Part shown: one piece after another, positions 34,401 through 43,400 of the stretch
Layout: each line of letters begins with the position of its first letter
Numbering within the stretch: the stretch's first letter is position 1
NCBI GenBank assembly: GCA_963779755.1
Contig: CAVZZO010000001.1
Span: forward strand, 1,056,001-1,120,000
Direction: 5' to 3'
Source of the DNA: an uncultured Gemmatimonadales bacterium
GTDB taxonomy: Bacteria; Gemmatimonadota; Gemmatimonadetes; Gemmatimonadales; GWC2-71-9
DNA length: 64,000 bases
Made by a program: the position numbers

Positions 34401-37400
34401 TCCTGGTGCAGGGGCGCTGGGGGATTCTGGGCCCGCGGCCGGCGGACCTGGGCGAGTTCCTGCTGCAGTACCAGGAGGCGATCAGTGGGTAACGGACTGC
34501 GGGTGGTCTTCGCCCTGGCCGCCAAGGACCTGCGGCTCGAGTTCCGCACCAAGACGGCGCTGCTCTCGGCCACGATGTTCGCCGCCCTGGTGCTGGTGAT
34601 CTTCAACTTCGCGCGCGACCCGACCGTGGTCTCCAACGTGGAGCTGGCGCCCAGCGTGCTCTGGGTCACCTTCGCCTTCGCCGCGGTGATCACCCTGAAC
34701 CGCGCCTTCAATGTGGAGCGGGAGAACGGCGCGTTCGACGGCCTCCGGCTGGCTCCGGTGCCGCGGGGCGCGATCTACCTGGGCAAGCTGCTGGCGAACC
34801 TGATTTTCGTGGGGCTGGTGGAGGCCATCGCGCTGCCGCTCTTCGTGGTGTTCTTCAACGTGGACCTGGGCGGCGCCGTCTTCGGGATCATCGGGGTGAC
34901 GGCGCTGGCCACCATCGGGTTCGTGAGCGTGGGGACGGTGTTCAGCGCCATGGTGGTGCGCACCCGCTTCGCCGAGCTCATGCTGCCGGTGCTGCTGCTG
35001 CCGTTCATGGTGCCGCCCATCGTGGCCGCCGCCCAGGCCACGACCCGCCTGCTGGGGGGCCGTCCGTTGAGCGAGCTTCTGGGATGGCTTAGGTTACTCG
35101 CCTTGTATGATATCGTGTTCGTGGTTCTCTGCACTCTGACATTCAGCGCGGTGGTGGACGAATGACCCCGTCCATTGACCGGGCCCGGCGCACTATCCGT
35201 CGCGGACAGGTGATCACCGCCGTCGCCCTGCTTCTCATCGTGGTGGTCTATGTGCTGGCCCTGCAGTACACGCCGGTCGAAGCCCGGCAGGGGCTGGCGC
35301 AGAAGATCTTCTATCTCCATGCTCCGGCGGCGTGGAGCGCCCTGCTGGCCTTTTCCCTGGTGGGGATCGCCAGTGCTCTGTACCTGTGGCTGCAGGATCC
35401 CCGGCTCGATCTCTTCGCCGCGTCCTCGGCCGAGGTGGGGGTGGCCTTCAGCTCCGTGATGCTCACGACCGGCCCCATCTGGGGCAAGCCGATCTGGGGT
35501 ACCTGGTGGACCTGGGACGCCCGGCTCACCCTCACCCTGTTTCTGTTCTTCCTGTTCGTCGGCTATCTGGTGCTGCGGGGCGCGCTGAGCGACCGGTCGG
35601 AGCGGGCCCGTTTCAGCGCGGTGGTTGGCATTCTGGGGCTGCTGCTGGTGCCCTTCATCCATCTCACGGTCTACCTGTTCCGTACCCTGCACCCCACTCC
35701 CATCCTGATGAAGCCCAGCGCCCCGTCGCTGCCCGGCGCCATGCTCCGGACGCTGCTCATCTCTTTCGGGGTCTGTACCCTGCTCTACATCGGGTTCGTC
35801 ACGGTGCGCTACGGCCTGGCCCTGCTCAACGCCGCGCGCGAGGAGGCCGCCCATGCCGCCTAGCGCCACGCCGCAGAACGGCGGCTACATGGTCGCGGCG
35901 TATATCATCACCGCCGTGATCTATACCGTCTATACGATTTCGCTGTGGGTCCGGGCGCGGAACGCGCTGCGAGACAAGGACTGAGGAGCTGCGATTGTCA
36001 CCCTGAGCGCAGCAAAGGGGCCGAAGCCCTCCCCGGGTTTCGGCCCCTTCGGTCGCGGCGCTCCCTCAGGGTGACAGGTCGCTTGGCGTCCTCAGTCCTT
36101 TAGTCCTTCAGTTCTCAGCCCTCAGCCCTCAGCCCTCAGCCCTCAGGCCACAGTCCCTTCAACTTTTCTCCCCAGAAGCCAGGTCCACACCGCCCCCGCC
36201 ACCAGGGCCCCGATGATCGGGCCGGCCCAGTAGACGATCTGTCCGGTCCAGGTGCCGGAGACGAGCGCGGGGCCGAAGGCGCGCGCCGGGTTCAGCGCCG
36301 CGCCGGTGAGCGGGCCGCCCACCAGGATGCCGAAGAAGAGCGTGAGGCCCACGGCAAAGCCGCCCACGTTGGCCGGACGCGGCGTGTTGATCGACCCGTA
36401 GTAGGCGGACACCAGGAAGAAGCTGAAGACCGCCTCCACGAAGATGGCCTGGCCCAGCGTCACGGTGCCCGCAATGAGCGGCGTGCCCAGGGCGGCGGCG
36501 CGGGTGACGTGCTCGGGCATGCTCCACTTGAGCAGCAGCGCCCCCACCACGGCGCCCGCGACCTGGGCCACGATGTAGACCACGCCGCTCGTGAGATCGA
36601 GGCGGCGGGTCGTCATCATGCTCAGGGAGACGGCCGGATTGAGATGCCCGCCTGAGATGTCCATCATCAGGGTGACCATCACGCCCAGGACCATTGCCTG
36701 CGCCAGCGCGATGCCCAGGGTGCCGTAGCCGGCGCTGGCCATGTTGCTCACTACGGCGGCGCCGGCGCCGACGTACACGATCGCGAGAGTGCCCAGCAGT
36801 TCCGCCACTGCACGACGAGACAGGGAAGACATCGATTCCTCGGGTTGGAAGACAGTGGCGGGGAATTAAAAGGGGAGGGGGGGAGAGATGGTAGGGGCGC
36901 AGGGGGGACGCATGCTTCCCCCCTCGCTCACCGCCCGTCCGCCCGCCGCAGCACCAGCGCCGCGTTGATGCCCCCGAATCCGAACGAATTGGTGAGGAGA
37001 TACTCCGGGTCGGACTCCCGGCCGTCCTCCCGGAGGTAATCCAGGTCGCAGGTGGGGTCTGGCTGGTGCAGGTTGACTGTCGGAGGGAGCCAGCGACGGT
37101 GGCTGGCCAGGGCGCAGATCGCCGTCTCGAAAGCCCCGCTGGCGCCCAGCGCATGGCCGTAGTACCCCTTGGTGCCGCTCAGCGGCACCCGGTAGGCCCG
37201 CTCGCCCAGCACCTGCTTGATGGCCAGGGTCTCGGTGGGATCGTTGAGCGGTGTGGACGAGCCGTGCGCGTTGACGTACTCGACCTCCTCCGGCCTGACC
37301 CGGGCTTCGCGCAGCGCCAGCCCCATGGCGCGGGCCGCCTGGCTGCCGTCGGGTCGCGGGGCGGTCATGTGGTGGGCGTCGTTGGTCAGGCCGAAGCCGC

Positions 37401-40400: not shown

Positions 40401-43400
40401 CACCACCGCCACGTTGGCCAGGCCGCCGCCCAGCGGATTGATGCCGGCGTAGCCCTCTCCTCCCACGTGCAGTTCGGCGCAATCGCCCAGTCCTTCGACC
40501 TCGTGCACGTGCGCCACGAAGGCCATCCGCCGCGGCACGCCCCGCCGCCGCCGTCCCAGCACGCGCGCGACCTGCGAATGCAGCCCGTCGGCGCCGATGG
40601 TGAGCGTGGCCTGGACCGGGTGCAGCGTGCCGCGTTCGTCACGCAGGGTGGCGCCGGTCACGCGTCCGCCTAGGCGGGTCAACCCCTGGACGGCGGTGCC
40701 CTCGCGGACCAGGGCACCCGCCTCGCGGGCGGCCGCCACCAGCCGGGTATCGAGAAGGGTACGGCGGACGGCGAGCCCGGTCGGGCGCCAGGGCGTCACG
40801 CTGGAGCGGGCGAAGCGGCCCTGCAGCCGGGCGCCATGGGCCGCCACGACGGTGGTCCCGGCGAGCGGCGCCGCGCCCGCGCGCTCCAGGTCTTCCAGGA
40901 CCCCCAGCCGGTGCAGCAGCCGGGTGCCGGCGGGGCTCATGTATTCGGAACAGGCCTTGTCGCGGGGAAACCGGGCGCGATCGGCCACCAGCACCCGCCA
41001 GCCCGCGGCAGCGAAGTGGATGGCGCTGGCCGCGCCCGCGGGCCCCGCGCCGGCGATGAGCACATCGACCGATCGCGGCGGGGGGCCGTCAGGACTGGCG
41101 TTCGAAACGGTAGCCACCGATGTCTATCCGGTCGTGCGAGAAATCCACGGTGGTCACCGGAAAGAGCACCACTCCCGGGCCGCCGGCGAAGGTGACCGCC
41201 ACGTCGTTCCCCTGCATGGCCCAGGTGCAGGCCGTCACGGTCCGGAGCGGATACCCCAGCGCAAGGGAGAAGTTCTCGATCCGACGGACGCAGTGCCCGT
41301 CCACGCCGAAGCTCCACGTGGTGGTGATCCGGATCAGATCCTGGTCGGTCCGGTAGAGTTGGACATTGGCCCAGGTCCCCACCAGCAGGTCGGAGCCCGT
41401 CTGGATCCCACCGCCGCCGGTGCCGCCGGTCCCTACGCCCGGCTGCTGCCCGCCGCCCCCGAGGCCGGTGGGCGTCCGGGCGCTGCCCGCACAGCCGAAG
41501 CTCAGGAGGAGGCCGCCAGCCAGCGCCACGCGAGCCAGCCGCCCAGCGCGCCCGCGCCGGTGGCCACCAGGTTCACGCCGTCGTTGCTGAGCCATCGCCA
41601 TCCTCCCGTCGGTTGCGCTGCCGCGCCGCAGCGATGTCGAGCCCGTTCGCAGGGCTGCTGGCAGCGGGGGCAGTAGAATCGTGCCTGCACCAGAGACCCC
41701 AGGGCGGAATCTCCCAGCATCCCCCCGAAACCTAGGACGGTTCCCGCCGGAAAGAAGAGACGCCCACCGGCCAGAGACGCCGCCACGGCGGCCAGGAACA
41801 CCGCGCCGGCCAGCCCGGCGGCGGTGCCGGCCCAGCTCACGGCGCCGCTGGTGCCCGGCGGCACCCGGCGGCCGCGGAACAGGTCGCGAGGCCAGCCGCC
41901 GAAGCGGGGGCCCCAGGCCGATGCCCAGGTGTCGGCCGTCGCGACGGCGAGCGCAGCGGCCAGCATCCAGAAGCCGGCCTGGGGATGGCGCAGCGCCACC
42001 AGCGCGCCCACGGCCGCGGGGCCGCCGTTGGCCAGGACCTGTACTGCATCGCGCCGATCGCCGCGGGCATCGAGATCCCGCGCCGCCGGATCCGGCCCCC
42101 CGCGGCCCAGGAGCGTGCTGGACAGAAAGAAGGCGGCCAGCACCGCGCCACCCCGCCAGCCGGTACCGGCCAGCACCGCCGTGCCCACGAGCACGGCCGC
42201 CGCGGCGCCGCCCGCGCTGAGGGCGCGCCCGCGCCAGGCGGCCAGGGCCAGCGCCGCCGCCACCAGGACGGCGAGCCCGGGGCCGGGCATCAGGCGGGAG
42301 GCGCTGGCTTCGCCTGTCGCAGGGAATCCAGGATGCGGGCCCGCAGCTCGGGCGGGCACTGCTGGCGCTCCAGCTGCTGTTCCAGCAGGTGGAGGAACTT
42401 CCGTTCGATGCGGGCGGCGTCGTCGCAGGCACGGCAGCGCTGCAGGTGCCGGCGGATCTCGTCCGCCAGCTCCGGCGTGATCTCCTGCTTGAGGTAATCC
42501 GCCAGATGCTCCATCAGGTCACGGCACTCGAAATCCGGGGGCGTCATGCGCGGCCTCCCTGCCGGAGAAATCCCATTTCCACCGCATGCTGGTAGAGGTC
42601 GCTCTGCAGCTGCCGGCGAGCGCGAAAGAGGCGCGACTTGACGGTGCCCACCGGAATCGCCAGCGCCTGGGCGATCTCGGCGTAGGGCAGGCCCTCCACG
42701 TCGCTCAGCTGCACCACTTCGCGGAAATCGGTCGGGAGCCGGTCCAGCGCTTCCAGCACCCGGTCGTCCACGATCCGGTCGAAGAACTCCCCTTCCGGAT
42801 CGGCTTCTGCCATGCGGGCATGCAGCGAGTCCAGCGCGTCCCGGCTGAGGTCGGCCGCCGGTGTCTCGCGCCGCTGCCGCCGCAGGCTGTTGAGGAAGGT
42901 GTTTCGCAGAATGGCCACCAGCCAGGCGCGCGCGCTGGTCCCCGGCTGATAGCTGTGCCAGGCGCGGAAAGCCTTCAGCATGGTCTCCTGCACCAGGTCT
43001 TCCGCCTGGCTGCGGTCGCCGCCGGCATAGCGCAGCGCCATCCGGTAAAGCAGATCCAGATGCGGAAGCACCTCGGCGTCGAAACTGCGGGGGCGGGCGG
43101 AAGAGACGGCCATGAGTGGAAGGTAAGGGGTGAGGCAGGAGGGGGGAAAGAAGAAGGAGAAACGGGAAACGGGAACGGGCAAACGCTGTCTGTTCCCTTT
43201 TCCCTTTTCCCATTTCCCGGTTCTCCGTTAGGTTTCCCCCACTTCATCCCACCGGTCCTCCGTGTCCGCTCGCTCCGTCGCCGCCGTCATCCCGCTGAGC
43301 CTGCTGCAGGCTATCCGGAATCTCGATACGCCGGTGGAGGACGGACTCCAGGAGTTCGCCGAGGAGATCGTGGCCCGCCGGCTGGGCCTGAGCCGAACCG

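What a model noticed while it worked through the whole genome (the two positions that open the first line are those of the whole stretch)
36928..42290. Order-wide aromatic polyketide-like cluster: lone FabF-type ketosynthase plus aromatase, methyltransferase, flavin enzym [...]
g00955-g00961 encode a second FabF-like ketosynthase, a WhiE/TcmN-type aromatase-cyclase, a methyltransferase, a flavin reductase, an FAD oxidoreductase and a DUF92 membrane protein, with no chain-length factor or carrier protein. The set is near-core in Gemmatimonadales and probably makes a methylated phenolic lipid or quinone.
Evidence so far: In 43 loci of >=11 kb: ketosynthase 42, cyclase 42, methyltransferase 42, flavin reductase 41, DUF92 35, ACP 0. 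Cyclase matches WhiE ORFVI and TcmN; ketosynthase matches FabF with Cys-His-His kept. Outside the order only the methyltransferase-oxidoreductase pair is kept.
(Added by a program. Inside this text positions count along the whole contig: contig position 1,056,001 is position 1 of the stretch shown here. "Call 12" and the like, gene names such as g00115 and contig names such as C1 are that model's own, and its searches are not shown. The text may have been shortened before it was handed on; [...] marks where a part breaks off. The agent that wrote the report below was given it as the finding of a first reader that could run no searches.)

Follow-up and report, generated by a model that had tools for sequence, protein, structure and literature searches.

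The report
Partnerless ketosynthase-cyclase phenolic lipid operon
Most Gemmatimonadales, and scattered bacteria of other phyla, carry an undescribed four-gene set in which a lone chain-building enzyme related to those of aromatic antibiotic pathways, but without their usual partner subunit, sits with a ring-closing protein and two tailoring enzymes, and probably makes a methylated phenolic lipid.

Summary
The operon is real and near-core in the order: cyclase in 131 of 151 genomes, ketosynthase beside it in 40 of 40 loci; the 20 cyclase-less genomes lack an intact copy of this ketosynthase. Flavin reductase and DUF92 are local additions. The methyltransferase and flavoprotein belong to the families that flank type III PKSs in alkylresorcinol operons (hidABC, planctomycetes); here ketosynthase plus cyclase fill that slot. 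The ketosynthases form their own clade, which groups with KS-alpha/CLF of aromatic type II PKSs rather than FabF (96/92, 96/93; 86/88 with wider sampling). No CLF was found, and four genomes hold only the fatty-acid ACP. Best reading (0.55): a CLF-less synthase on AcpP makes a one-ring resorcinol-type polyketide, then methylated and oxidised. Against: the cyclase lacks the arginine that known aromatases need; no product or expression is shown. The scan noted this module four times on other DNA; my searches found no paper on it.

The parts
36928..38193 (-). Core: elongating ketosynthase, 421 aa from ATG 38193 (an in-frame GTG at 38235 overlaps the cyclase stop); own clade, grouping with type II PKS KS-alpha/CLF
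   Evidence: PF00109+PF02801; TIGR03150 508.9 bits, cut-off 493.75; C170/H310/H347 in 41 of 41 clade members; trees; AU test
38232..38696 (-). Core: single-domain START/helix-grip protein of an aromatase/cyclase-like family, 154 aa
   Evidence: PF03364; model pLDDT 91.3; best folds ZhuI Z 20.3, TTHA0849 20.0, StfQ 19.4, BexL 18.8, WhiE 18.4; H82, M90, W94, H109, T140 in 120 of 120
38696..39391 (-). Core: SAM methyltransferase, PRK06202-like (HidA/planctomycete Mtr type)
   Evidence: NF004851 E 2.3e-36, below cut-off; same top family as the Paludisphaera operon MT; plasmid relatives sit beside type III PKS genes
39388..39867 (-). Accessory: HpaC-like flavin reductase, inserted in this order only
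   Evidence: PF01613; 37 of 40 order loci; 0 of 80 loci of other phyla
39867..41117 (-). Core: FAD-dependent oxidoreductase of the geranylgeranyl-reductase/halogenase-like superfamily (HidB/Fdo type); probable ring hydroxylase
   Evidence: PF01494; TIGR02032 below cut-off; 29% identical to the Paludisphaera operon enzyme; no WxWxIP in 33 rows
41089..41595 (-). Lipoprotein-like ORF of no family, start uncertain; not core
   Evidence: No Pfam or NCBIfam hit; 4 of 40 loci
41502..42290 (-). DUF92 membrane protein; conserved neighbour in this order, not core
   Evidence: PF01940; 31 of 40 order loci; 0 of 80 outside the phylum
42290..43113 (-). ECF sigma factor (42544-43113) and zinc anti-sigma factor (42290-42547), coupled to DUF92; neighbour in one family mainly
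   Evidence: Pfam; 13 of 40 loci each
36143..36832 (-). Aquaporin-family (MIP) gene downstream of the KS; conserved neighbour
   Evidence: PF00230; 31 of 40 loci

Best explanation
A four-gene pathway (MT, OX, CYC, KS) for a one-ring, resorcinol-type aromatic polyketide lipid, built by a CLF-less type II synthase. SHOWN: the four genes travel and are lost together; the KS is an intact Cys-His-His enzyme of its own clade; no CLF or own ACP exists in the loci, and several genomes have only the fatty-acid ACP; the cyclase has the aromatase/cyclase fold; MT and OX are of the families that tailor alkylresorcinols in type III PKS operons. INFERRED: (1) the KS works as a homodimer on housekeeping AcpP loaded by FabD; (2) it takes an acyl-ACP starter and adds about three malonyl units without reduction; (3) the cyclase closes the C2-C7 aldol ring and aromatises it, with invariant histidines (H32, H82, H109) and Y33 standing in for the usual arginine; (4) after release and decarboxylation the MT adds a methyl group to the ring and OX hydroxylates it (in this order with reduced flavin from the added reductase), giving an alkyl-methyl-resorcinol, hydroquinone or benzoquinone in the membrane. 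KS plus cyclase thus do the job of a type III PKS. Starter length, methyl position and role in the cell are not known.
For: Co-occurrence: KS next to the cyclase in 40 of 40 order loci and 70 of 72 loci of other phyla, one of which is a KS-CLF pair. Co-loss: 20 of 20 cyclase-less order genomes have only FabF-level hits, 41-47%; one keeps a frameshifted remnant. Slot: MT-OX-CYC-KS order outside the order parallels MT-OX-type III PKS (PMC10896814); 7 of 8 fetched plasmid MT loci have a type III PKS beside them, 6 annotated and 1 read from the ORF; G148 and G126 lack the cyclase and carry MT-OX-type III PKS; G208 lacks this KS and has MT beside a type III PKS. Chemistry of the analogue: G. maris type III PKS gives alkylresorcinols, and MT+OX add one C-methyl. 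KS: clade 100/99; with KS-alpha 96/92, with KS-alpha and CLF 96/93; a cluster-KS+FabF clade is rejected, p-AU 0.0175; S312 and I212 are shared with 7 of 7 KS-alpha, while FabF has T in 30 of 31 at the first. One ACP only in G000, G061, G003, G245; exactly two KS at E<=1e-15 in G061, G003, G141, G166, G217. Cyclase: ZhuI best fold, Z 20.3, rmsd 1.9 over 149; wider profile hits BexL at E 7.6e-21.
Against: The pocket arginine called critical in all active aromatase/cyclases (TcmN R69, ZhuI R66; PMC12664062) is M in 39 of 40 order proteins and Q in 75 of 80 others. START folds also serve as plain lipid carriers: TTHA0849 ties with ZhuI (Z 20.0). The KS still passes the FabF cut-off and its best PDB hits are FabF; the KS-alpha grouping falls to 86/88 with 22 more KS, KS-alpha sampling is small (4-7), and the AU group was named after a tree was seen. 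A review names ApeR as the only homodimeric type II PKS KS (PMC9006962). MT and OX are only about 30% identical to the type III-linked ones, the type III-linked OX tend to group apart (88/76), and in G148/G126 the whole cassette came from a planctomycete-like source, so no in-place swap is shown. Type III PKS and cyclase are not strictly exclusive (2 of 131 have both). No thioesterase is in the operon, so release is unexplained. The role of OX was not resolved even in the analogue.
Confidence: 0.55

Rival explanations
1. Non-aromatic lipid tailoring: the KS makes a special fatty acyl chain, the START protein binds or dehydrates it, the MT methylates and OX reduces or oxidises the chain, giving a modified fatty acid.
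For: KS passes the FabF cut-off; cyclase lacks the conserved arginine; OX's best family is geranylgeranyl reductase-like; START proteins often carry lipids.
Against: MT has no hit to fatty-acid methyltransferase families in Pfam or NCBIfam; the same MT/OX families work on resorcinols in type III PKS operons; KS groups away from FabF.
Confidence: 0.18
2. Short-chain variant: the KS makes a C8 tetraketide (orsellinate/orcinol type) that is methylated, hydroxylated and then prenylated in trans to a second respiratory or antioxidant quinone; DUF92 helps supply the prenyl donor.
For: The acyl pocket is remodelled and invariant: FabF G107/I108/I138 become A114/L115/F145 in 41 of 41; a tighter I108 gate shortens products in FabF (PMC9006962); DUF92 in 31 of 40 order loci.
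Against: DUF92 in 0 of 80 loci outside the phylum; no prenyltransferase in the window's operon, the nearest UbiA-family gene being heme o synthase 18 kb away; two futalosine-pathway (MqnA/MqnD family) genes are present in 5 of 5 genomes with or without the operon. The DUF92 kinase role is recalled, not tested.
Confidence: 0.13
3. DarAB-like chemistry: the KS joins two acyl-ACPs head to head and the START protein aromatises the cyclohexanedione to a dialkylresorcinol.
For: DarAB systems pair one KS with one aromatase, and brt lacks its own ACP (PMC6836626).
Against: DarB is a distinct class that lost elongation and is FabH-like (recalled); this KS is PF00109/PF02801 with Cys-His-His; no Dar/Stl structure was among the best fold or sequence hits, which does not exclude it.
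Confidence: 0.07
4. A spare housekeeping FabF whose neighbours are conserved only by synteny.
For: DUF92, aquaporin and V4R-like neighbours are kept by synteny in the order; FabF cut-off passed.
Against: The same four genes stay together across phyla while the neighbours change; KS and cyclase are lost together 20 of 20; separate clade.
Confidence: 0.03

Closest known systems
hidABC (hierridin) of picocyanobacteria and the MT-OX-type III PKS operon of Planctomycetota (PMC10896814, PMC6836626, PMC8086630)
   Same: PRK06202-like methyltransferase and GG-reductase-like flavoprotein, MT-OX-synthase order outside Gemmatimonadales, no own ACP
   Different: No type III PKS; an elongating Cys-His-His KS and a separate START cyclase stand in its place; MT and OX only about 30% identical; flavin reductase added in this order
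Aromatic type II PKS with single-domain aromatase/cyclase (ZhuI, TcmN, WhiE ORFVI; BexL N-domain)
   Same: KS groups with KS-alpha/CLF; helix-grip cyclase with W26, Y33, W65, M90, W94 and a His at the BexL H109 position
   Different: No CLF, no own ACP, no further cyclases; conserved pocket arginine replaced; near-core inheritance in an order rather than a patchy secondary-metabolite cluster
DarAB / BrtCD / StlCD dialkylresorcinol systems
   Same: One KS plus one aromatase, ACP borrowed from primary metabolism in brt
   Different: DarB is a non-elongating class; here the KS is of the FabF/KS-alpha type
SrsABC and FtpABC alkylquinone operons (named in PMC10896814)
   Same: Synthase, methyltransferase and flavoprotein giving phenolic lipids or alkylquinones
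   Different: Type III PKS; homology of their MT and flavoprotein to these was not tested
Housekeeping FabF
   Same: Catalytic triad, F209/F406 gates, TIGR03150 above cut-off
   Different: Second copy outside the FAS operon, own clade, invariant changes in the acyl pocket (A114, L115, A141, V144, F145, S169)

Membership tests
Aromatic type II PKS | KS with Cys-His-His triad | tested here: met
   C170, H310, H347 in 41 of 41
Aromatic type II PKS | Chain-length factor partner | tested here: not met
   No second KS-like gene in the 40 order loci; five Gemmatimonadota genomes have only two KS at E<=1e-15; own genome's third KS is a long-branch Cys-to-Ser copy elsewhere
Aromatic type II PKS | Dedicated ACP | tested here: not met
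   0 of 131 loci, control 8 of 27 FabF loci; one ACP in G000, G061, G003, G245, more in G141 and G166
Aromatic type II PKS | KS belongs to the KS-alpha/CLF lineage | tested here: inconclusive
   96/92, 96/93, p-AU 0.0175 against FabF, but 86/88 with wider sampling and open in the quick tree
Aromatic type II PKS | Makes a poly-beta-keto chain and an aromatic product | not testable with these tools
   Needs enzymology
TcmN/ZhuI/WhiE aromatase-cyclases | Helix-grip fold with pocket Trp/Tyr/Met residues | tested here: met
TcmN/ZhuI/WhiE aromatase-cyclases | [quoted passage not shown] | tested here: not met
   M69 aligns with the WhiE arginine; M 39 of 40, Q 75 of 80; importance from PMC12664062
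hidABC / planctomycete alkylresorcinol operon | PRK06202-like methyltransferase and GG-reductase-like flavoprotein | tested here: met
   Same top NCBIfam models as the Paludisphaera operon, below cut-off in both; HidA/HidB themselves were not compared
hidABC / planctomycete alkylresorcinol operon | Type III PKS in the operon | tested here: not met
   No PF00195 match in G000; none in 80 loci by a single-sequence query
Housekeeping FabF | TIGR03150 above cut-off | tested here: met
   508.9 against 493.75
Housekeeping FabF | Lies in the FAS operon and groups with FabF | tested here: not met
   Real FabF lies beside acpP elsewhere; separate clade
DarAB | Non-elongating DarB-class KS | tested here: not met
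   PF00109/PF02801, no ACP_syn_III hit; no DarB sequence was placed in the trees
DarAB | DarA/StlC-type aromatase | tested here: inconclusive
   Not listed; a family that is not listed is not excluded
FADH2-dependent halogenase (for OX) | WxWxIP motif (motif recalled) | tested here: not met
   0 of 33 rows, although halogenases are the best PDB hits

The most novel reading that the evidence does not exclude
This is a living homodimeric aromatic polyketide synthase from before the KS-alpha/CLF duplication: one ketosynthase on the fatty-acid ACP makes an unreduced chain, and a histidine-based cyclase both ends and aromatises it. It would be a fourth route to alkylresorcinol-type lipids, kept as near-core biology in an abundant soil and freshwater order, and the missing link between FabF and the KS-CLF heterodimer.
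Probability: 0.3. Interest if true: 0.9.

Novelty: new variant of a known kind. Interest (0 to 1): 0.72.

Why it matters
Aromatic type II PKSs are described as KS-CLF heterodimers with their own ACP, and their descent from a FabF-like homodimer is called largely speculative (PMC13685256; PMC9006962). A widespread CLF-less relative paired with a cyclase makes that question testable with four small genes. It would also define a lipid that most members of a poorly known, abundant order make; its KS is annotated as FabF and its cyclase often as COQ10 or RatA, so mining by KS-CLF pairs would skip it.

Tried and rejected
No RNA holder was listed for the stretch; this says nothing on expression. Promoter/terminator scan gave nothing above chance inside the operon. 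In-place swap of KS+cyclase for a type III PKS: rejected for G148/G126, whose MT and OX group with Paludisphaera, 100/100. CLF in trans: the third KS of G000 is a long-branch copy elsewhere, and five relatives have no third KS. DUF92 as a core step: rejected. Menaquinone head-group pathway: futalosine-family genes are present regardless. Halogenase: motif absent. Three loci titled Angelobacter, Steroidobacteraceae and Binatia group with Limnocylindria in the cluster-KS clade and apparently in FabF too, so I did not count them as extra phyla. MT hits overlapping the cyclase came from two read-through ORFs in my profile; recounted with a clean profile. Five KS ORFs with extraction errors were dropped from the first alignment (35 of 40). 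The 54-row cyclase alignment gave no search pattern; a 14-row one gave WPxILPHYR, so conservation of W26-R34 in those 80 loci is built in. Paper searches without a description of this module: (one more timed out); the library lacks most subscription papers, and no supplements were read.
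Full report
Observation. The minus strand carries a coupled run of genes: ECF sigma and anti-sigma, DUF92 (41502-42290), a lipoprotein-like ORF, FAD oxidoreductase (OX, 39867-41117), flavin reductase (39388-39867), methyltransferase (MT, 38696-39391), START protein (CYC, 38232-38696), ketosynthase (KS, 36928-38193), then an aquaporin. Stops and starts overlap at OX/reductase, reductase/MT and MT/CYC. The KS is a second copy: the housekeeping fabH-fabD-fabG-acpP-fabF operon lies elsewhere and its FabF is 40.6% identical.

Range within the order. CYC is in 131 of 151 genomes at least 90% complete: 63/69, 55/69 and 12/12 by family, without G000. In 40 loci that I took from long contigs of those 131: KS 40, OX 40, MT 38, reductase 37, DUF92 31, aquaporin 31, sigma 13, lipoprotein 4, ACP 0. 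In the 20 genomes without CYC the best KS hits are FabF-level, 41-47%, against 59-76% for true copies; 16 of the 20 have no strong MT hit; G020 keeps a frameshifted remnant and G091 keeps MT-reductase-OX only. KS and CYC are thus lost together, though kin are not independent. The tallies include up to four unpublished genomes (G064, G075, G178, G220); no other claim rests on them.

Of 61 genomes from other orders of the phylum, 12 have a strong CYC hit and 4 a weak one. Of 11 of the 12 fetched, 6 show MT-OX-CYC-KS, 3 CYC-KS and 2 CYC alone. A profile search found the family in Paenibacillus and Herpetosiphonaceae. There a KS follows CYC directly in 70 of 72 loci with room (one, L166, is a KS-CLF pair), and all four genes are present in 53 of 59; reductase and DUF92 in 0 of 80. 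In the phylum of one Thermomicrobiales genome, 28 of 201 genomes have CYC. So the core is four genes, near-core in Gemmatimonadales and patchy elsewhere.

The tailoring pair. MT and OX have the same best NCBIfam models as the MT and OX of a Paludisphaera MT-OX-type III PKS operon (PRK06202; TIGR02032, MenJ, QhpG; all below cut-off); identities are 32% and 29%. Of 30 plasmid records with an MT hit I fetched 8; 7 have a type III PKS beside it. PMC10896814 (abstract and Results read) reports this operon for 58 of 96 planctomycete type III PKSs, alkylresorcinols from the synthase, one probable C-methyl group from MT+OX, an unresolved role for OX and no phenotype on deletion. For hidABC, HidA methylated pentadecylresorcinol and HidB is proposed to hydroxylate (PMC6836626, PMC8086630, passages). 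In the order, type III PKSs are in 5 of 151 genomes: 3 of 20 without CYC, 2 of 131 with it. G148 and G126 carry MT-OX-type III PKS, but their MT and OX group with Paludisphaera: a whole cassette arrived, not a swap in place. The MT tree does not separate the two partner types with support; type III-linked OX group weakly apart.

The ketosynthase. All 41 cluster KSs form one clade apart from FabF, KS-alpha and CLF (quick tree, base open). In careful trees the clade joins KS-alpha at 96/92 with FabF, NodE, an aryl-polyene-type KS and FabB outside, and joins KS-alpha and CLF at 96/93 with the order among the three open. Holding it with FabF is rejected at p-AU 0.0175 (group named after seeing a tree). 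With 22 more KS, some on very long branches, the grouping stays but at 86/88. It shares S312 and I212 with 7 of 7 KS-alpha and has an invariant remodelled pocket: A114, L115, A141, F145, S169. No ACP lies in 131 loci (control 8 of 27); G000, G061, G003 and G245 have one ACP each, G141 and G166 more. Five Gemmatimonadota genomes have exactly two KS, leaving no CLF. Passages of PMC9006962 name ApeR as the one homodimeric type II PKS KS. PMC13685256 (first three of six parts read) and PMC10132072 (passages) treat the origin from FabF, work on KS-CLF pairs and, in what I read, describe no such clade.

The cyclase. The model is confident (pLDDT 91.3); ZhuI (Z 20.3), TTHA0849 (20.0), StfQ, BexL and WhiE lead, the COQ10-like CC1736 follows at 14.6 (that label is recalled). 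Y33 aligns with TcmN Y35 and S67 with S67 (roles from PMC10945814, passages). The invariant H109 aligns with a BexL histidine that is H109 if a 20-residue tag is subtracted (my count); ZhuI H109 and R66 are named as key residues in bioRxiv 10.1101/142687 (passages). Against this, the arginine is replaced (M or Q), and PMC12664062 (passages) calls it critical in all active domains. H82, M90, W94, H109 and T140 are in 120 of 120, more than a passive carrier seems to need, but that is inference. A member of this family precedes a KS-CLF pair in a Ktedonobacterales locus, tying it to type II PKS.

Mechanism and verdict. The best reading (0.55) is a CLF-less KS on AcpP that extends an acyl starter about three times, CYC closing one aromatic ring, MT methylating and OX hydroxylating, to give an alkylresorcinol- or alkylquinone-type lipid. 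Genetics, families and trees are shown; every chemical step is inferred. Rivals: modified fatty acid 0.18, short-chain prenylated quinone 0.13, DarAB-like 0.07, spare FabF 0.03. It works like a type III PKS alkylresorcinol operon and descends, probably, from the type II PKS line, but fails membership of both. The scan noted this module in four other genomes; my reading before that look-up was already the same, the notes added the hidABC lead, and a word search found no note on the KS-alpha link. PMC11316326 (passages) mentions only NRPS and type I PKS for the phylum in what I saw. Supplements were not read and could list the cluster.

Noticed in passing
L166:3296-6403: A Ktedonobacterales locus has this cyclase family directly before a KS-alpha/CLF-like pair, with no ACP, MT or OX nearby; a possible link between this module and true type II PKS.
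   Followed up: partly
L032:9721-10884 (G000 C3): A lone, very divergent KS with the catalytic Cys read as Ser and both His kept, coupled to a large secreted-looking ORF; a similar long-branch KS is in G128 (L266).
   Followed up: partly
L103:6800-10603 and L104:5781-8745: Two genomes of one genus hold a planctomycete-like MT-OX-type III PKS cassette, in L103 after a DUF2071 gene; probable horizontal gain in genomes that lack the KS-cyclase operon.
   Followed up: yes
L096:8355-8930 and L099:7884-8372: Orphan cyclases without this KS in two genomes of other orders, beside DUF4126-like and sigma-factor genes; the genome of L099 has MT next to a type III PKS on another contig (L246).
   Followed up: partly
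proteins P0123, P0254, P0236: MT-cyclase and OX-cyclase fusions among the representatives; real fusions or read-through errors were not told apart.
   Followed up: no
L253, L254, L255, L256: Several Chloroflexota genomes carry tandem pairs of FabF-like KS from two separate clades, unrelated to this module.
   Followed up: no
L139, L152, L169: Records titled Steroidobacteraceae, Angelobacter and Binatia group with Limnocylindria in the KS trees; the titles are probably wrong.
   Followed up: partly
window 43262-43888: A 208-aa ORF with no Pfam or NCBIfam hit and a V4R-like Cys tail (my reading) is kept upstream in 20 of 40 order loci.
   Followed up: no
window 33746-35863 and 60151-60903: ccmA/B/C-like heme export genes on the plus strand downstream of the operon (read from the ORFs) and a heme o synthase gene near the window's end.
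   Followed up: no
window 36110-36145: A short GGGCTGA-type tandem repeat follows the aquaporin stop.
   Followed up: no
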